This document shows, piece after piece, positions 28,680 through 38,162 of a DNA stretch of 64,000 nucleotides (position 1 is its first letter; every line of letters begins with the position of its first letter). The stretch comes from Escherichia phage vB_EcoM_WL-3. The stretch lies in the sequence record MT968995.1; one strand, written 5' to 3'. The position numbers were made by a program, and so were the translations under genes. The notes beneath the pieces are model-generated. The model was not told the origin of the DNA. It did no database searches and worked only from the letters and a program-made list of their open reading frames with translations.

Positions 28680-29096
28680 TTAAATGTAAATATTTTTGCC
28701 GTAATACTTATACCAGTGTGGCTTCATTAAAATTTTTTCATCGAGTCGTTGTTGACTCAACTTAATAGCTGATTTGCATGGATTATAATCATTTTTCCAT
28801 TCTACTGGAATATCGCTGATGTCAGGAACTTCAGTATCTTTTATACTGAACCCGCGTTTTAAGCATTCCGTTATAATGTCCGATTGACGCTTTCGCAAAA
28901 ATTCTAACTTATCGTAAAAGAAAGTAACATGACCAGAACCTAAAATAAATTTAGAAGATATTTTAAAATCTTTAACGCGCTTACCGTTTGCCACATGCTT
29001 ACGAACTATACCAAAAACACGCGGCAATTCACGGTATTCTGCGATTAAATGTTGATCAGCAAGTTCAGATACTAAAGTCAAATTAATACGAGTCAT
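28680..29096 (-). CDS. denV: Endonuclease V (pyrimidine-dimer DNA glycosylase)
   Basis: 138 aa; [17 protein letters not shown]...[10 protein letters not shown] matches recalled T4 DenV with substitutions. Confidence 0.9.
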
Positions 29097-29155
29097 TTTA
29101 TCCCTCCAAGTAACTGTGAATATACTATCACAATTCTAGGAGAAAGTAAATAGCT

Positions 29156-29686
<531 letters not shown>

Positions 29687-32969: not shown

Positions 32970-33005
32970 TGTATAGTACCATGGAAGAACAGAGATGTAA
33001 ACAGT
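32970..33005 (-). promoter_or_regulatory. T4-type early promoter cassette (-35 GTTTACA, -10 TACTAT), near-duplicate of 19071-19106
   Basis: Minus-strand GTTTAC (32996-33001 rc), TACTAT (32973-32978 rc). Confidence 0.5.
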
Positions 33006-33132
33006 TTTGTGAAAAAATTTTTAGGGAATTCTAGGGCAGGGATGGGCAATTAAAGGATAGGATAATATATTATAAAGGGTATAAACTAAATGATGCCTAG
33101 AGAGGTCCAGAAAGGCCTAGATACCAAAAAGC

Positions 33133-33151
33133 CCTATCATTTAGATAGGGA
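33133..33151 (-). terminator. Hairpin CCCTATC-ATTTA-GATAGGG
   Basis: 7-bp stem immediately after the stop of ORF 33159-33722. Confidence 0.4.
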
Positions 33152-33158
33152 TTTAAAA

Positions 33159-33722
33159 TTATTTACCTAGTTTAGTTATTATAGCTTCGGCAGCAGCTTT
33201 TAGCTTAGATGCGGTGTTAATACGATTTTTAATTTCAGTATACGCATCGCCAAGAACGTCGAGGCTATCAGAATAAACACTTACACTATTGCGTTCGCTA
33301 TTTGAAATAGAACCTTTAGTTTTGCGGTCAAAATCGGTGTACACGTCTTGAAGATCGCGGGCTGCCTTCTTTGCATCATCCAATGCATCAAGAGCTTTAT
33401 TCAAAGCATTAACGTATTTTTTAGTGTCGAACATATTCTTAGAAATTTTAACAGGTGCGCGTTCAGGAGTAGCTAACACAGATTTAGGAACCTGAGCGCC
33501 AGATGCCAATTTCTTAGAAATTTTGAAAAATGCTTTATTGAATTTATTTTCTTGACTCATTGTAAAAGAACTATTATCGATGTTGTACATTTCAATAGCT
33601 TTAGCTTTCCACTTAAGAAAATCGCCGCGGTCTTTTGGATCCAATTGGAAGAATACTTTAGTAAGTTCTGCTTCAGATGGTAATTTTGCTGCTTCGGTTA
33701 AAAATTCGGCATAGGTTTTCAT
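33159..33722 (-). CDS. Capsid-targeted internal protein (IPIII-like)
   Basis: 187 aa; N-terminal capsid targeting sequence MKTYAEFLTEA of the MKTYQEFIAE type; basic, Lys/Ala-rich. Confidence 0.65.
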   Translation of the reverse strand: MKTYAEFLTEAAKLPSEAELTKVFFQLDPKDRGDFLKWKAKAIEMYNIDNSSFTMSQENKFNKAFFKISKKLASGAQVPKSVLATPERAPVKISKNMFDTKKYVNALNKALDALDDAKKAARDLQDVYTDFDRKTKGSISNSERNSVSVYSDSLDVLGDAYTEIKNRINTASKLKAAAEAIITKLGK

Positions 33723-33812
33723 TTAAAATCCTTGAAATAATTTATCGGTCGGTTATTAATTATTTATTACTTTGTTATTATCCGTAACAGCATTCTCTAT
33801 GTGATTCAAACT

Positions 33813-33840
33813 AAAAAGCCCCAACCTTTCGGTCGGGGCT
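33813..33840 (-). terminator. Intrinsic terminator (10-bp GC stem, then U-run on the minus strand) ending the tRNA/small-RNA transcript
   Basis: AGCCCCAACC-TTTC-GGTCGGGGCT preceded on the plus strand by AAAAA. Confidence 0.5.
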
Positions 33841-34150
33841 AAGCCTTGCGGCAACCTTGTCGGGGTTCCACCTGCTAAGGCAAGTGTTTGTACGAAACGC
33901 CGGGATTCGAACCCGGTTATTAAGTAGTTGACGCTACTCAATATTTTTAAAAGGCCATATCTCGACCATATCCGAACGTTCCGTCAAAAACGCTACTCGG
34001 CTTACGGCAAAGATATTTCCTCGAATCGATAATTCGGTGCGCCGTTTCTGCTGTGATGTAAGAGGGCATCAACAAATCATAAAGATTTATTAACACAATT
34101 CCTTACCCAGGGAACATCAGTCCGACGACTTACCGGTAGCGACCCGGTTT
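33841..34150 (-). ncRNA. Small stable RNA region (T4 RNA C / RNA D-like, tRNA-like T-arm element)
   Basis: Non-coding 0.3 kb between terminator and ORF; GC-rich stems, CCGGG-TTCGAAT-CCCGG element; position matches T4 species 1/2 RNAs; boundaries not determined. Confidence 0.35.
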
Positions 34151-34151
34151 C

Positions 34152-34502
34152 TTAATATTCTTTTAAAGCATCAACCTGTTCACGACGTTTACGCCATAAA
34201 TCAATTGCTTCATACGCAGATTCAGCATTTCGAATTGGACGACATTTATATAAAGACTTGTGATTTTGATATTGTGTAGATAACGGAATTTTATCTAAAA
34301 GGTCTTTACGTTCAAAATATTCGTAACCATCTAAACCAAATGAACGATTTTTGAGAAATTGCCAATGACCATATTCGTTTTCGACATAAACATAATCTGC
34401 ATGCTGATAAAGCAAATTAATTACACGTTCAGAAATAACAGTGTCATTGTGATTAAAATAGAATGTTAAATCATGAACTACTAAATAAACATTACCTTTC
34501 AT
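34152..34502 (-). CDS. Hypothetical protein
   Basis: ORF track 116 aa. Confidence 0.5.
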   Translation of the reverse strand: MKGNVYLVVHDLTFYFNHNDTVISERVINLLYQHADYVYVENEYGHWQFLKNRSFGLDGYEYFERKDLLDKIPLSTQYQNHKSLYKCRPIRNAESAYEAIDLWRKRREQVDALKEY

Positions 34503-34521
34503 ATTTTCCTCACTTATAATT

Positions 34522-34597
34522 GGTCGAGGCAGTAGGGATCGAACCTACGACCTAGGACTTAGAAGGTCCTTGCTCTTCCTTCTGAGCTATGCCTCGG
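34522..34597 (-). tRNA. tRNA-Arg (anticodon UCU)
   Basis: Hand-folded cloverleaf; anticodon stem-loop GGACC-UUCUAAG-UCC; TTCGATC T-loop; encoded CCA. Confidence 0.8.
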
Positions 34598-34601
34598 ATT
34601 T

Positions 34602-34676
34602 GGCGGACATGATAGGATTCGAACCTATAACCAATCGCTTAACAGGCGATCGCTCTGCCATTGAGCTACACATCCA
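34602..34676 (-). tRNA. tRNA-Asn (anticodon GUU)
   Basis: Hand-folded; anticodon arm ATCGC-CTGTTAA-GCGAT; TTCGAAT T-loop; encoded CCA. Confidence 0.7.
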
Positions 34677-34680
34677 AATT

Positions 34681-34767
34681 GGTGGGGAGTGATGGAGTCG
34701 AACCACCCGAGTCGCAATGACAATGGATTTACAGTCCACACCGCTACCTCTACGGGATAACTCCCCT
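34681..34767 (-). tRNA. tRNA-Tyr (anticodon GUA), long variable arm
   Basis: Anticodon loop CTGTAAA identical to E. coli tRNA-Tyr; TTCGACT T-loop; encoded CCA. Confidence 0.7.
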
Positions 34768-34779
34768 AATTCTTAATTT

Positions 34780-34854
34780 GGTGGCCCTGGGTGGAATTGA
34801 ACCACCATCTGGCGATTATGAGTCGCTTGCTTGAACCTTCCAGCTACAGGGCCA
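34780..34854 (-). tRNA. tRNA with anticodon CAU (Met or lysidine-type Ile)
   Basis: Acceptor GGCCCTG/CAGGGCC; anticodon loop CTCATAA; TTCAATT T-loop; encoded CCA. Confidence 0.65.
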
Positions 34855-34861
34855 AATTTTC

Positions 34862-35347
34862 TTATTTTATGTAATATTTATTTAAAAACTTTCTAGCTTG
34901 AGTATGGCTAACATTTATAGCATTTGCATAATTTTTAATAAAACCTCGTTCATCCATATTAAAACTTTCTAATATTTTTAATCGTCTAGCTATCTCATCT
35001 TGACTTAAAGTACTTGCATTATTTTTAGAAATTTTTTCTAAGGACTGTACTGAGTGTTTTCGACCATTAAAATTAAAATTTTTAGATTTTGGAGGAAATC
35101 TATCATTTAGTCTCGCATCTTTTGTATTTTGATTATTAGTTGCGCAATATATGTTATTTAATGAGTATGGTCCTTTATCACCAAAACGGCACATACAGTA
35201 TTCATGACCCTTTCTTCCACGCTTATCATAATTTCCCGTTGATTTCCACCAATGCAACCACTCATCAAAAGTTAAATTCCATTCAATGTTTCTACGTATA
35301 GCAGAATTCCGCTGAGAAATATATTTTGCATAATCTTCTTTCATCAC
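34862..35347 (-). CDS. Cys/His-rich ORF in the tRNA gap; candidate mobile nuclease-like gene
   Basis: 161 aa; A/T-rich; motif NLTFDEWLHWW...GHEYCMCRFGDKGPYSLNNIYC; occupies the slot where T4 carries segB. Confidence 0.55.
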   Translation of the reverse strand: MMKEDYAKYISQRNSAIRRNIEWNLTFDEWLHWWKSTGNYDKRGRKGHEYCMCRFGDKGPYSLNNIYCATNNQNTKDARLNDRFPPKSKNFNFNGRKHSVQSLEKISKNNASTLSQDEIARRLKILESFNMDERGFIKNYANAINVSHTQARKFLNKYYIK

Positions 35348-35391
35348 AAATTTCTCTACTTATTACATACACTAAGCTAAATCAGCAAAAC

Positions 35392-35481
35392 TGGCGGAGG
35401 CGATAGGATTTGAACCTATGAGTCGCCGGAGCGACTGCCGGTTTTCAAGACCGGTGCATTAAACCACTCTGCCACGCCTCC
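35392..35481 (-). tRNA. tRNA-Ser (anticodon UGA), long variable arm
   Basis: Anticodon arm CCGGT-CTTGAAA-ACCGG; TTCAAAT T-loop; encoded CCA. Confidence 0.8.
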
Positions 35482-35483
35482 AG

Positions 35484-35557
35484 TCTCCATACAAGGATTT
35501 GAACCTTGGACCTCCTGATCCCAAATCAGGCGCTCTACCAAACTGAGCTACACGGAG
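35484..35557 (-). tRNA. tRNA-Pro (anticodon UGG), 3' CCA not encoded
   Basis: Anticodon arm CCTGA-TTTGGGA-TCAGG; 2 nt from tRNA-Ser (dimeric precursor as in T4). Confidence 0.75.
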
Positions 35558-35567
35558 TAAATTAAAT

Positions 35568-35641
<74 letters not shown>

Positions 35642-35646
35642 AAATT

Positions 35647-35733
35647 TGGTGCGAGAAGTGGGACTCGAACCCACAAGGAAATCATTCCGCAGCATTTTAA
35701 GTGCTGTGCCTTTACCAATTTGGCCATTCTCGC
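35647..35733 (-). tRNA. tRNA-Leu (anticodon UAA), long variable arm
   Basis: Anticodon arm CAGCA-CTTAAAA-TGCTG; TTCGAGT T-loop; encoded CCA. Confidence 0.8.
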
Positions 35734-35734
35734 G

Positions 35735-35807
35735 CTGGGAATAAAGGACTCGAACCTTTGCATCCTGGAATCAAAATCCAGTGCCTTACCAACTTGGCTA
35801 ATTCCCA
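35735..35807 (-). tRNA. tRNA-Gln (anticodon UUG), 3' CCA not encoded
   Basis: Acceptor TGGGAAT/ATTCCCA; anticodon loop TTTTGAT; 1 nt from tRNA-Leu (Gln-Leu dimer as in T4). Confidence 0.75.
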
Positions 35808-35904
35808 ATTATTAACAAAGGCTCTTAAGCAAGAACCCTTGATGATAGAGGGTATTAATCAGTGCGATATGAGTTAATAATAACAAATAATTCTTAAAGC
35901 ATAT

Positions 35905-36192
35905 TTACCATTTATAATAATACATATTTACGATGCATTCAAGACCCAAAGGATTCTTGAAAATATCATATTCAAGAGGACCTTTTTCTGTTTCAATAAA
36001 GAAATCAAAATTTACTGTATTAAATTTACGTTCTTCCTTCACTAATTTAACTTGAGAAGATGAACGGTCAATGTAAACCTTTTCAACTTCAAAACATGTT
36101 AAAATGCCATAATCATCAATCAAAGCTTTAGCCGCGTCTTGATCATATTTATATCCATTTTCAATGGATGATACTTTCGCATAAAGAATCAT
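35905..36192 (-). CDS. Hypothetical protein
   Basis: ORF track 95 aa. Confidence 0.5.
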   Translation of the reverse strand: MILYAKVSSIENGYKYDQDAAKALIDDYGILTCFEVEKVYIDRSSSQVKLVKEERKFNTVNFDFFIETEKGPLEYDIFKNPLGLECIVNMYYYKW

Positions 36193-36194
36193 TA

Positions 36195-36593
36195 TCAGCC
36201 TTCATCAACAATAGTGTGAGTATTAGCATTTACGATTTGCCACCAATCAAAGCGATTAGAATCCATCGGTTTGTTTTCATTTTCTTTGATAATGTCACGG
36301 AGTTCATCTTCAGAGAATGCTTTAGCGATTAAATCGGTATACCCACCACGTGGATAATAATTATCACCTGCAAACAAAAGGAAATTTACCTTCCCGGAAG
36401 GAACATACGCTTCCTTAGGATACTTGTTTCCTGCGTGGTCAACCACTTCAATATAACGGTAAGGAATATCGGTTCTTTCAACCCATTGCCATGCCGCCGC
36501 AGGGGAATCGAAAGCATCTACACCTAAACGATTATCTTCATCTTTAGACGGATTATTTTCGTAATCCGCATATACATAATATTCAACGTTCAT
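36195..36593 (-). CDS. Hypothetical acidic protein
   Basis: ORF track 132 aa. Confidence 0.55.
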   Translation of the reverse strand: MNVEYYVYADYENNPSKDEDNRLGVDAFDSPAAAWQWVERTDIPYRYIEVVDHAGNKYPKEAYVPSGKVNFLLFAGDNYYPRGGYTDLIAKAFSEDELRDIIKENENKPMDSNRFDWWQIVNANTHTIVDEG

Positions 36594-36778
36594 TATTCAC
36601 CTTTAGAAATTTTATCCATAACAATAGCAATTAAACCAATTAAAAATGCTACTACAAGTGAAAAAACATTTTCTGCCGTAGTCAATAATCCGCATATAAA
36701 TCCAACAAACATTGAAAAACTGAAAGCGGAAGCAGAAATTGCAATAGCAACATTTCGAATTAATTCACAACGTTTCAT
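36593..36778 (-). CDS. Small membrane protein
   Basis: 61 aa, two hydrophobic segments. Confidence 0.5.
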   Translation of the reverse strand: MKRCELIRNVAIAISASAFSFSMFVGFICGLLTTAENVFSLVVAFLIGLIAIVMDKISKGE

Positions 36779-36797
36779 TTTATTCTCCTCAGTAGTA

Positions 36798-36838
36798 GAT
36801 AGGGTAATAGTATCACTACCCTATCTAAAAGTAAACTT
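36798..36838 (-). promoter_or_regulatory. Early promoter with stem-loop (PeSL-like cassette)
   Basis: -35 GTTTAC (36831-36836 rc), -10 TACTAT (36807-36812 rc); inverted repeat GATAGGG...CCCTATC around -10. Confidence 0.5.
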
Positions 36839-37070
36839 ATTTTTTACGAAAAATTGATTTATTTTCTGCTGCCCATTTTTCAATAACTGCAGCAGGACCA
36901 GTAACAACAATTTTATCACCGTAATCTTCTGCGGCGAGTTGACCGAAATTATCTAATGCATCACGAAGAACTCCATGAGGCATTTCACCCATTTTATCTT
37001 TCTTGCCAGTGTAAATAAACTCAACTTTTACATCAGCAGTTTCAGCAATAAATTCTTGGTAAGTTTTCAT
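36837..37070 (-). CDS. Capsid-targeted internal protein (IPI-locus ORF)
   Basis: 77 aa from ATG 37070; starts MKTYQEFIAE (canonical capsid targeting sequence). Confidence 0.65.
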   Translation of the reverse strand: MKTYQEFIAETADVKVEFIYTGKKDKMGEMPHGVLRDALDNFGQLAAEDYGDKIVVTGPAAVIEKWAAENKSIFRKK

Positions 37071-37096
37071 TTTGATTTCCATTTGGTTTTGTTTTG

Positions 37097-37136
37097 ATAG
37101 GGTAATAGTATCACAACTAAAACCCTATGTAAACAA
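37097..37136 (-). promoter_or_regulatory. Early promoter with stem-loop (PeSL-like cassette)
   Basis: -35 GTTTAC (37129-37134 rc), -10 TACTAT (37105-37110 rc); inverted repeat ATAGGG...CCCTAT. Confidence 0.5.
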
Positions 37137-37146
37137 CTTTGTGAAA

Positions 37147-37404
37147 TTATTTTAAATCTTCTAATCGTTTCTTCATCTTAGAACCATTTTTAGCAATTTC
37201 TCCTGCATCGGAGCATAATGCTAAAAGTGCTTTAACTTTAGTTTGGTCTCCTTTAAAAGATGAAGGATCGACCGCAGCAGCAAGTTCTTTAATACGAGAG
37301 AAAAGACGCTCAGCTTCAGCTAAAGCCATTCCAAGCTTTACTTCCATACCGTGGGAAGATTCAGTGATAGTAGTTTTTGTAGCAAACTCTTTGAAAGTTT
37401 TCAT
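37147..37404 (-). CDS. Capsid-targeted internal protein (second IP-locus ORF)
   Basis: 85 aa; starts MKTFKEFATKTTITE (capsid-targeting-like); Lys/Ala-rich. Confidence 0.6.
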   Translation of the reverse strand: MKTFKEFATKTTITESSHGMEVKLGMALAEAERLFSRIKELAAAVDPSSFKGDQTKVKALLALCSDAGEIAKNGSKMKKRLEDLK

Positions 37405-37426
37405 TTTTATTTTCCTAATTAATTTT

Positions 37427-37467
37427 GATGAGGTAATAGTATCACTACCTCATCAGTATGTAAACAA
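37427..37467 (-). promoter_or_regulatory. Early promoter with stem-loop (PeSL-like cassette)
   Basis: -35 GTTTAC (37460-37465 rc), -10 TACTAT (37436-37441 rc); inverted repeat GATGAGG...CCTCATC (compensatory versus the other two copies). Confidence 0.5.
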
Positions 37468-37477
37468 CTTTGTGAAA

Positions 37478-38162
<685 letters not shown>

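What the first reader, a model, noticed from the sequence alone, without database searches (positions are those of the whole stretch)
33159..37404. Rearranged internal-protein repertoire: three capsid-targeted ORFs, none between denV and e
Three ORFs begin with a T4-type capsid targeting sequence: MKTYAEFLTEA (33159-33722), MKTYQEFIAE (36837-37070) and MKTFKEFATK (37147-37404). As I recall T4, ipII and ipIII lie between denV and e, but here denV and e are only 60 bp apart. An IPIII-sized gene instead sits next to the small-RNA region, and the IPI locus holds two cassettes, each with its own early promoter and stem-loop. Internal proteins are injected with the DNA and include anti-restriction factors, so this phage probably injects a different set of anti-defence proteins from T4.
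Basis: partly seen in the sequence, partly recalled or inferred. Interest (0 to 1): 0.55.

Follow-up and report, generated by a model that had tools for sequence, protein, structure and literature searches.

The report
T4-like phage's variant internal-protein set
This T4-like phage carries three genes for proteins that are probably packed into the capsid: two are already-named internal proteins (Ip5, Ip6), and the third belongs to a widespread family that no record annotates and that lies outside the two recognised internal-protein loci.

Summary
Exactly three ORFs in the 64-kb window start with a T4-type capsid targeting sequence (0.005 expected by chance). denV and e are 59 bp apart, where T4 has ipII and ipIII.

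Most of it is already known:
- The 85-aa ORF is Ip5, 100% identical to RB15 Ip5 (described in 1994).
- The 77-aa ORF is Ip6. It is 100% identical to Bas37_0260, which a 2025 preprint reports as an McrBC inhibitor.
- The repeated early-promoter/stem-loop cassettes are the known shuffling elements of the IP loci.
- The direct denV–e junction occurs in 244 phage records. Bas35–37 share the layout but add a second leader-bearing ORF beside the 187-aa gene.

The less ordinary part is the 187-aa ORF between e.8 and rnaC:
- It has no homology to IPIII beyond the leader.
- It belongs to a family found after the tRNA cluster in several Tevenvirinae genera.
- Every full-length member keeps the leader pattern.
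- It follows a terminator and a late-promoter-like motif, not an early cassette.
- Every record calls it "hypothetical".
- Its Bas37 ortholog was scored "Essential" in a transposon screen, which may be a technical artefact.

Packaging of this protein is inferred, not shown.

The parts
37147..37404 (-). ip5: an 85-aa internal protein. Leader MKTFKEFATKTTITE, with predicted protease cut after E15. Predicted mature product 70 aa, pI 9.2.
   Evidence: 100% identical to RB15 Ip5 (Z35082), PST IpV and bas37_0261. Matches phrog_3499, 'internal head protein'.
36837..37070 (-). ip6: a 77-aa internal protein. Leader MKTYQEFIAE, with predicted cut after E10. Predicted mature product 67 aa, pI 6.5.
   Evidence: 100% identical to bas37_0260, reported as an McrBC inhibitor. 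94.8% identical to PST IpVI. Annotated ip6/ipVI in fFiEco06, GiZh and VR7. Matches phrog_8111.
37423..37493 (-). Early-promoter/stem-loop cassette upstream of ip5, downstream of 57B.
   Evidence: Member of repeat family D1. TTTACA-17 nt-TACTAT with TG extension at 37464-37436. Inverted repeat GATGAGGTA/TACCTCATC read from the sequence.
37092..37162 (-). Early-promoter/stem-loop cassette between ip5 and ip6.
   Evidence: Reference copy of repeat family D1. Promoter match at 37133-37105. Inverted repeat 37089-37109/37116-37136.
36794..36864 (-). Third, more diverged copy of the cassette, between ip6 and trna.4.
   Evidence: Member of repeat family D1, 61% identical to the reference copy. Perfect 11-nt inverted repeat 36796-36806/36817-36827.
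33159..33722 (-). 187-aa ORF with leader MKTYAEFLTE and predicted cut after E10. Predicted mature product 177 aa, 19.7 kDa, pI 9.5. A candidate internal protein at a third locus, between e.8 and rnaC.
   Evidence: ORF. Properties. 185/187 identical to bas37_0243. Same as RB14ORF136. Split homolog in RB69. Homologs across genera all keep the leader pattern. Matches phrog_2280, unknown function.
33761..33768 (-). AATAAATA, one mismatch from the T4 late-promoter consensus TATAAATA, 46 nt upstream of the 187-aa ORF.
   Evidence: Homologs in other genera have TATAAATA or GATAAATA at -33 to -46. Promoter function is inferred.
33817..33840 (-). Terminator hairpin at the 3' end of rnaC, immediately upstream of the 187-aa gene unit.
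   Evidence: Aligns to the T4 rnaC end.
33132..33150 (-). Terminator hairpin just after the stop codon of the 187-aa ORF.
   Evidence: On the plus strand, both ends of the segment absent from T4 begin AAAAAGCCC.
29097..29155 (-). The 59-bp e-denV intergenic region, holding a single early-promoter-like element where T4 has ipIII, ipII and two more such elements.
   Evidence: The same junction occurs in 244 phage records.

Best explanation
The window comes from a Tequatrovirus whose set of capsid-packaged internal proteins differs from T4's. The difference arises by gain and loss of modular gene cassettes, not by rearrangement.

**Locus 1 (57B-trna.4).** T4's ipI is replaced by two cassettes, ip5 and ip6. 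Each sits behind its own T4-type early promoter embedded in a stem-loop.

**Locus 2 (denV-e).** This locus is empty. A single promoter element remains where T4 has ipII and ipIII.

**Third site (e.8-rnaC).** A 187-aa gene lies here in a different kind of unit: terminator hairpin, late-promoter-like motif, ORF, terminator hairpin.

**Proposed mechanism for all three proteins** (inferred from T4 work, not shown here). The first 10-15 residues bind the prohead scaffolding core. The prohead protease gp21 cuts after the L/I-x-E motif. The mature protein stays with the packaged DNA and enters the host with it.

**Likely functions**
- Ip6 most likely blocks the host McrBC type IV restriction enzyme.
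- Ip5's target is unknown.
- I think the 187-aa protein is a conserved, late-made, basic, DNA-associated head-interior protein rather than a strain-specific anti-restriction factor.
For: **Shown by tool results**
- Three leader ORFs against 0.005 expected by chance.
- Positions 4, 7, 8 and 10 of each leader carry the residues that experiments on IPIII found necessary for targeting (4, 7) and processing (8, 10). An L/I-x-E site precedes a small residue in all three (rules from PMC9026906).
- Ip5 is 100% identical to RB15 Ip5.
- Ip6 is 100% identical to bas37_0260, reported as an McrBC inhibitor.
- Three copies of the promoter/stem-loop cassette.
- A clean 1.09-kb absence at denV-e.

**For the 187-aa ORF**
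- tblastn with a distant relative (P0013) finds the family in 350 phage records, all annotated "hypothetical protein". Genera confirmed from fetched loci are Tequatrovirus, Mosigvirus (RB69), Karamvirus, Winklervirus and Kagamiyamavirus, all after the tRNA cluster.
- All 14 full-length or N-terminally intact members examined, in Tequatrovirus and other genera, start M-x-x-[YF]-x-[EQ]-F-[IL]-x-E, although overall identity falls to 23-31%.
- In one distant contig the homolog and its unrelated neighbour share that phage's own leader variant, MITF(N/K)(E/Q)FLNES.
- A TATAAATA-like motif lies 33-46 nt upstream in every homolog checked.
- In Bas35-37 a second leader-bearing ORF with a perfect TATAAATA sits beside it.
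- The predicted mature protein is basic, and relatives have a linker that is 62-71% Pro/Ala/Lys.

**From established knowledge**
- A 10-residue capsid targeting sequence is enough to load foreign proteins into T4 heads (PMC9026906).
Against: - There are no virion mass-spectrometry data for any of the three proteins from this or a related phage. One literature search found none.
- The 187-aa gene lacks the early-promoter/stem-loop cassette that marks the classical IP loci.
- Unlike known internal proteins, it is conserved and syntenic across genera.
- Its Bas37 ortholog was scored Essential in a transposon screen (1 of 48 TA sites hit). T4 ipI, ipII and ipIII were all non-essential in the same screen.
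- Its late-promoter-like motif has a mismatch at position 1.
- The structure model is of low confidence (pLDDT 67), and fold searches gave nothing informative.
- The McrBC result for Ip6 comes from a preprint.
Confidence: 0.78

Rival explanations
1. The 187-aa protein is a prohead core or assembly component, in the manner of gp67, gp68 or the morphogenetic role of IPIII. It would be needed for head assembly or DNA packaging rather than acting as an injected effector. It enters the core through the leader and is cut by gp21, but its job is finished before infection of the next cell.
For: - It is conserved and syntenic across genera, unlike the hypervariable internal proteins.
- It has a late-promoter-like motif.
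- Its Bas37 ortholog was called Essential while both flanking genes were freely hit (23/23 and 29/34 TA sites).
- T4 IPIII mutants show half-rate head assembly and 40% burst size (PMC9026906).
Against: - T4, T2 and PST lack the gene and assemble heads normally.
- The gene is frameshifted in the OE5505 and RB69 records.
- The Essential call may be technical. The same screen mis-scored the known dispensable late genes hoc, inh, wac and uvsW.
Confidence: 0.25
2. The 187-aa protein is a classical injected anti-defence factor. Its target would be a system present in every E. coli K-12 derivative used in the transposon screen, which would make it look essential there.
For: - All four internal proteins with an assigned function (Ip1, Ip2, Ip3, Bas37_0260) inhibit type IV restriction enzymes (PMC12373910).
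- It carries the leader.
- It is dispensable in some lineages, being absent or frameshifted there.
Against: - T4 and T2 grow on K-12 without it.
- Anti-defence internal proteins are hypervariable and sit behind early promoters, whereas this family is conserved and apparently late.
- The reference library host already lacked the three K-12 type IV systems only in some experiments, and depletion was seen in all of them.
Confidence: 0.15
3. The N-terminal similarity of the 187-aa ORF is a relic of recombination with ip genes. Under this reading the protein is not packaged at all.
For: - The leader-coding DNA is only 64% identical to that of ip6.
- No annotation anywhere calls the protein an internal protein.
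Against: - The leader pattern is retained in homologs of 23-31% identity from other genera, and it follows each phage's own leader variant. A non-functional relic would have decayed.
- The leader alone suffices for packaging in T4.
Confidence: 0.07

Closest known systems
[quoted passage not shown]
   Same: The leader is the same type (MKT[YF]xEF...L/I-x-E). The proteins are small and mostly basic. Ip5 and Ip6 sit in the same locus and the same promoter/stem-loop context as ipI.
   Different: There is no sequence similarity beyond the leader for any of the three. The 187-aa ORF matches IPIII only in gross properties: 177 vs 183 aa, pI 9.5 vs 9.7, K+R 32 vs 33. It co-occurs with ipIII in Shfl2, PhAPEC2 and SCS4, so it is not a substitute for it.
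Ip5 and Ip6 of T-even phages (RB15, T2, PST; Repoila et al. 1994, EMBO J 13:4181)
   Same: Identical or near-identical proteins in the same locus, between 57B and trna.4.
   Different: None of substance. PST has the same ip5+ip6 pair but keeps ipIII and ipIV at the other locus.
Bas37_0260, an McrBC inhibitor of phage Bas37/KarlGJung (HIDEN-SEQ preprint 10.1101/2025.11.20.689424)
   Same: 100% identical to the window's 77-aa protein. Bas37 also has the same empty denV-e junction, ip5 and the 187-aa gene.
   Different: Bas37 carries one more leader-bearing ORF (bas37_0244, 157 aa) beside the 187-aa gene. The window lacks it.
[quoted passage not shown] 2010, PMC2839356; Comeau et al. 2014, PMC4122927)
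   Same: Repeated early promoter plus stem-loop flanks each ip5/ip6 cassette. A single element is left at the emptied denV-e locus, as expected from recombination between such elements.
   Different: The 187-aa gene has no such element. Its unit is bounded by terminator hairpins and has a late-type motif. In Bas37 the neighbouring cassette is flanked by duplicate copies of the rnaC terminator. Arbiol et al. stated that IP genes are absent outside the two loci.

Membership tests
T4-type capsid-targeted internal proteins | N-terminal capsid targeting sequence with an aromatic residue at position 4 and Phe at position 7 | tested here: met
   All three ORFs have Y/F at position 4 and F at position 7. 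The rule comes from PMC9026906.
T4-type capsid-targeted internal proteins | gp21 cleavage motif L/I-x-E within the first 10-19 residues | tested here: met
   LTE at residues 8-10 (187 aa), IAE at 8-10 (Ip6) and ITE at 13-15 (Ip5), each followed by A, T or S.
T4-type capsid-targeted internal proteins | Processed protein physically present in the virion and ejected with the DNA | not testable with these tools
   No proteomic data were found for these proteins. Needs virion mass spectrometry.
T4-type capsid-targeted internal proteins | Gene lies in one of the two recognised IP loci (57B-trna.4 or denV-e) behind an early promoter/stem-loop element | tested here: inconclusive
   Met for ip5 and ip6. 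Not met for the 187-aa ORF, which lies between e.8 and rnaC with a terminator and a late-like motif upstream.
T4-type capsid-targeted internal proteins | Dispensable on laboratory hosts | tested here: inconclusive
   Public transposon data for Bas37: ip5 18/18 and ip6 15/15 TA sites hit, so both are non-essential. The 187-aa ortholog had 1/48 sites hit and was scored 'Essential'. The screen also mis-scores some dispensable late genes.
IPIII family (by homology) | Sequence similarity to T4 IPIII beyond the 10-residue leader | tested here: not met
   BLASTP of the 187-aa ORF against T4 IPIII aligns only residues 1-12. A tblastn with the T4 IPIII protein as query lists no hit at the 187-aa locus among the rows shown.
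Ip5 family | Full-length identity to RB15 Ip5 | tested here: met
   85/85 identical.
Ip6 / Bas37_0260 family | Full-length identity to annotated Ip6/IpVI and to Bas37_0260 | tested here: met
   77/77 identical to bas37_0260 and 94.8% identical to PST IpVI. Anti-McrBC activity was not tested here.
PeSL-like promoter/stem-loop shuffling elements | Repeated early promoter overlapping an inverted repeat, flanking each variable ORF | tested here: met
   Three copies at 61-100% identity to the reference copy. A promoter match for two of them and inverted repeats for all three.

The most novel reading that the evidence does not exclude
The 187-aa gene would define a conserved, late-expressed, capsid-targeted protein family of the Tevenvirinae that T4 itself has lost. 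It would be important, perhaps essential, for propagation of the phages that carry it. It would act as a DNA-associated head-interior protein rather than as a hypervariable anti-defence accessory.

If so, this would overturn two working assumptions drawn from T4: that internal proteins are confined to two hypervariable loci, and that they are dispensable on laboratory hosts.
Probability: 0.25. Interest if true: 0.65.

Novelty: new member of a known kind. Interest (0 to 1): 0.42.

Why it matters
Internal proteins are the first phage proteins to reach the host cytoplasm. All four with an assigned function disarm type IV restriction enzymes, so a phage's set of them helps to decide its host range.

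For this window most of that story is already in the literature. The added value has three parts:
- A third site carries leader-bearing genes.
- One conserved family there (350 phage records by tblastn) and a neighbouring one (512 records) have never been annotated as internal proteins.
- An overlooked line in a public transposon dataset scores the first of these as essential.

That gives a cheap, direct experiment: virion mass spectrometry plus a clean knockout in Bas36, Bas37 or RB14. It also suggests that annotation pipelines should flag the leader motif.

Tried and rejected
**Searches on the 187-aa ORF that gave nothing usable**
- Pfam and NCBIfam scans of the three ORFs: nothing above threshold. 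The only hit was a weak cytochrome b562 match for the 187-aa ORF, which reflects helical content only.
- PDB sequence search: no real hit.
- Two AlphaFold models (pLDDT 61 and 67) show an all-helical protein with a disordered linker. Foldseek against the viral library returned only the family itself. Against PDB it returned only generic helical bundles at E>0.3.
- A single-sequence search of 1.84 billion cluster representatives found only two distant relatives. One is a repetitive 869-aa Asn-rich protein, which I regard as marginal. The other (P0013) was the bridge that revealed the wider family.

**Hypothesis rejected**
- That the 187-aa protein replaces IPIII. It has the same size and charge, and none of the first ten genomes inspected had both. 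However, Shfl2, PhAPEC2 and SCS4 carry both.

**Other dead ends**
- Rfam finds only tRNAs in the region. rnaC and rnaD were placed by alignment to T4.
- A sigma-70 and MotA-box reading of the region upstream of the 187-aa ORF gave no convincing match.
- One literature search was wasted because IP5/IP6 also means inositol phosphates.
- Repoila et al. 1994 is not held in the library.
- No virion proteome for a carrier of the 187-aa gene was found.

Full report
**What is there**

The window is from a T4-like phage (Tequatrovirus). The region 32900-37700 matches more than a thousand phage records, the best at about 98% identity. All genes discussed lie on the minus strand.

- 33159-33722 (187 aa)
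- 36837-37070 (77 aa)
- 37147-37404 (85 aa)

A six-frame scan for MKT[YF]xEF finds only these three in 64 kb. Shuffled sequence gives 0.005 hits on average. denV (28680-29096) and e (29156-29650) are 59 bp apart. The T4 reference record confirms the order denV, ipII, ipIII, e.

**The two small ORFs are known genes**

- The 85-aa protein is 100% identical to Ip5 of RB15, deposited with the 1994 study of T-even polymorphism, and to IpV of Yersinia phage PST.
- The 77-aa protein is annotated ip6 or ipVI in fFiEco06, GiZh, PST and VR7, and is 94.8% identical to PST IpVI.
- Both share only the leader with T4 IPI, IPII and IPIII.
- Each follows a copy of a roughly 71-nt repeat. For the copies upstream of ip5 and ip6 the repeat contains a T4-type early promoter, TTTACA-17 nt-TACTAT with a TG extension. 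All three copies overlap an inverted repeat.
- A third, more diverged copy precedes trna.4.

These are the promoter/stem-loop elements that Repoila et al. and later Arbiol et al. linked to cassette shuffling in the IP loci (PMC2839356; PMC4122927).

**The empty denV-e locus**

Aligned to T4, the window lacks about 1.09 kb holding ipII, ipIII and two promoter elements. The T4 element next to e is joined almost directly to the denV ribosome-binding site. This is the expected product of exchange between such elements. The same junction occurs in 244 phage records. It is present in BASEL phages Bas36 (Paracelsus) and Bas37 (KarlGJung), and Bas35 (WilhelmHis) shares the rest of the layout.

**Function of Ip6 and a hint for Ip5**

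A 2025 preprint (10.1101/2025.11.20.689424) reports that bas37_0260, one of two genes in the ipI position of Bas37, carries the packaging leader. Its deletion makes the phage sensitive to McrBC. I fetched Bas37 and found the following:
- bas37_0260 is 77/77 identical to the window's Ip6.
- bas37_0261 is 85/85 identical to Ip5.
- bas37_0243 is 185/187 identical to the 187-aa ORF.

In that paper's supplementary tables, insertions in ip5 were about 4-fold depleted on uropathogenic strain CFT073 relative to K-12. This is only a lead.

Ip1, Ip2 and Ip3 of T4 each inhibit a different GmrSD type IV enzyme (PMC12373910). For Ip6 it has experimental backing in a phage with the identical protein.

**The 187-aa ORF is the part that is not in the literature**

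*Position and boundaries.*
- It lies between e.8 and rnaC, where T4 has only 285 bp.
- Relative to T4, the extra segment begins at the rnaC terminator hairpin and ends at the gene's own terminator hairpin. On the plus strand both boundaries read AAAAAGCCC.
- There is no early-promoter/stem-loop element upstream.

*Annotation.*
- tblastn finds the protein at 85% identity or more in 164 phage records, every one annotated "hypothetical protein". These include RB14 (RB14ORF136).
- RB69, a Mosigvirus, has it at 94.7% nucleotide identity but split by a frameshift into ORF148c and ORF149c.
- T4, T2 and PST lack it.

*A wider family.*
- The single-sequence search of cluster representatives found a 32%-identical relative, P0013.
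- Using P0013 as the query, tblastn finds the family in 350 phage records.
- Fetched loci from Karamvirus, a Mosigvirus-like phage, Winklervirus and Kagamiyamavirus all place the gene just after the tRNA cluster and before e.8/e.6-like genes.
- A profile search of 5.8 billion proteins returned only unnamed or "hypothetical" members with no Pfam domain.

**Evidence that the family is capsid-targeted**

- All 14 full-length or N-terminally intact members examined start M-x-x-[YF]-x-[EQ]-F-[IL]-x-E followed by a small residue. The remainder falls to 23-31% identity with the window protein.
- The conserved positions are the ones that mutagenesis of the IPIII leader showed to matter: 4 and 7 for targeting, 8 and 10 for processing. 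L/I-x-E is the gp21 cleavage motif (PMC9026906).
- In a metagenomic T4-like contig the homolog begins MITFNEFLNES. The adjacent, unrelated ORF has ADP-ribosyltransferase-type Pfam hits and begins MITFKQFLNES. The leader therefore tracks the phage, not the protein body.
- In Bas35-37 a second leader-bearing ORF (157 aa, MKSYTQFLNE) sits next to the 187-aa gene. It is flanked by duplicate copies of the rnaC terminator. That family is in 512 records, again all "hypothetical". The window lacks it.

The e.8-rnaC interval is thus a third site for leader-bearing genes. This is contrary to the statement that IP genes are absent outside the two loci and to the "two Ip loci" of the 2025 paper.

**How the 187-aa gene differs from classical internal proteins**

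- A TATAAATA-like motif lies 33-46 nt upstream of the start in every homolog checked. It is perfect in KMB19, JQD51 and bas37_0244, GATAAATA in CHI14, EcS1 and the metagenomic contig, and AATAAATA in the window, Bas37 and RB69. This suggests late-only transcription after a terminator, in contrast with the early promoters of ip5, ip6 and T4 ipI-III. That is inference.
- The family is conserved and syntenic rather than hypervariable.
- The predicted mature protein (177 aa, 19.7 kDa, pI 9.5, 32 K+R and 23 D+E) resembles IPIII* (183 aa, 20.4 kDa, pI 9.7, 33 and 23) in bulk properties only.
- Relatives have a central linker of 62-71% Pro, Ala and Lys. Together with the basic charge, this points to DNA association.
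- The AlphaFold model is weak. It shows a small helical N-terminal domain, a disordered linker and a long helical hairpin, with no informative fold match.
- I first thought it might substitute for IPIII, but both genes are present in Shfl2, PhAPEC2 and SCS4. That idea is rejected.

**An unexplained public datum**

In the Bas37 transposon screen, bas37_0243 had 1 of 48 TA sites hit and was classed Essential. Its neighbours were freely hit: e.8 at 23/23 and bas37_0244 at 29/34. T4 ipI, ipII and ipIII were non-essential in the same screen. The authors do not mention this gene.

Caution is needed:
- The screen also scored hoc, inh, segE, uvsW, segC and wac as essential, although they are known to be dispensable.
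- Those genes, together with 5.1, 5.3 and 5.4, lie in late-transcribed units (the timing is my own knowledge of T4).
- The transposon's anti-CRISPR gene is described only as lacking a terminator. The searched passages mention no promoter of its own. Insertions in late-only units may therefore fail selection.

Either reading is informative: the gene is important, or it is a late-only unit, as expected for a head component.

**Verdict**

However, the variable IP repertoire, Ip5, Ip6, the cassette structure and the empty denV-e locus are all known or commonplace. The residual novelty is the recognition of a conserved, unannotated, leader-bearing family at a third locus. Its packaging still has to be shown.

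Noticed in passing
L004 2092-2526 (metagenomic T4-like contig, SRR28624380): A 144-aa ORF with ART-PolyVal/DUF3990 Pfam hits begins MITFKQFLNES. This is the same leader as the adjacent homolog of the 187-aa gene. It is a candidate capsid-targeted ADP-ribosyltransferase, comparable to T4 Alt.
   Followed up: partly
L009 6218-6691 (Bas37 bas37_0244); absent from the window between 33723 and 33816: A second leader-bearing ORF (157 aa, MKSYTQFLNE) has a perfect TATAAATA 46 nt upstream and duplicate rnaC-terminator hairpins on both sides. It is present in 512 phage records, all 'hypothetical'.
   Followed up: partly
L011 11429-11991 (RB69 ORF148c/149c): RB69, a Mosigvirus, carries the 187-aa gene at 94.7% nucleotide identity to this Tequatrovirus window, but split by a one-base frameshift. 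This is either a pseudogene or a sequencing error, and the identity is unusually high across genera.
   Followed up: partly
window 37147-37404 (ip5), via the Bas37 supplementary data: Transposon insertions in the identical Bas37 ip5 were about 4-fold depleted on UPEC CFT073 relative to K-12 (mean counts 263 vs 61, q reported as 0). The neighbouring 57B gene was also depleted, so a local effect is possible.
   Followed up: no
window 34152-34502: A 116-aa ORF lies between tRNA-Arg and rnaD. T4 has nothing there. It is conserved in RB69 (ORF150c) and Bas37 (bas37_0245), matches phrog_3355, and has unknown function.
   Followed up: no
window 34862-35347 and tRNA cluster 34521-35807: A 161-aa ORF (phrog_16521, no Pfam hit) sits inside the tRNA cluster where T4 has the homing endonuclease segB. 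The cluster has 9 tRNAs, including Asn, Tyr and a CAT-anticodon tRNA. It differs from T4's set, and from Bas37's, which has a different endonuclease at another position.
   Followed up: no
window 32973-33001: e.8 has its own early promoter of the same TTTACA-17 nt-TACTAT (TG) type just downstream of the terminator of the 187-aa gene. The 187-aa unit is therefore transcriptionally insulated on both sides.
   Followed up: no
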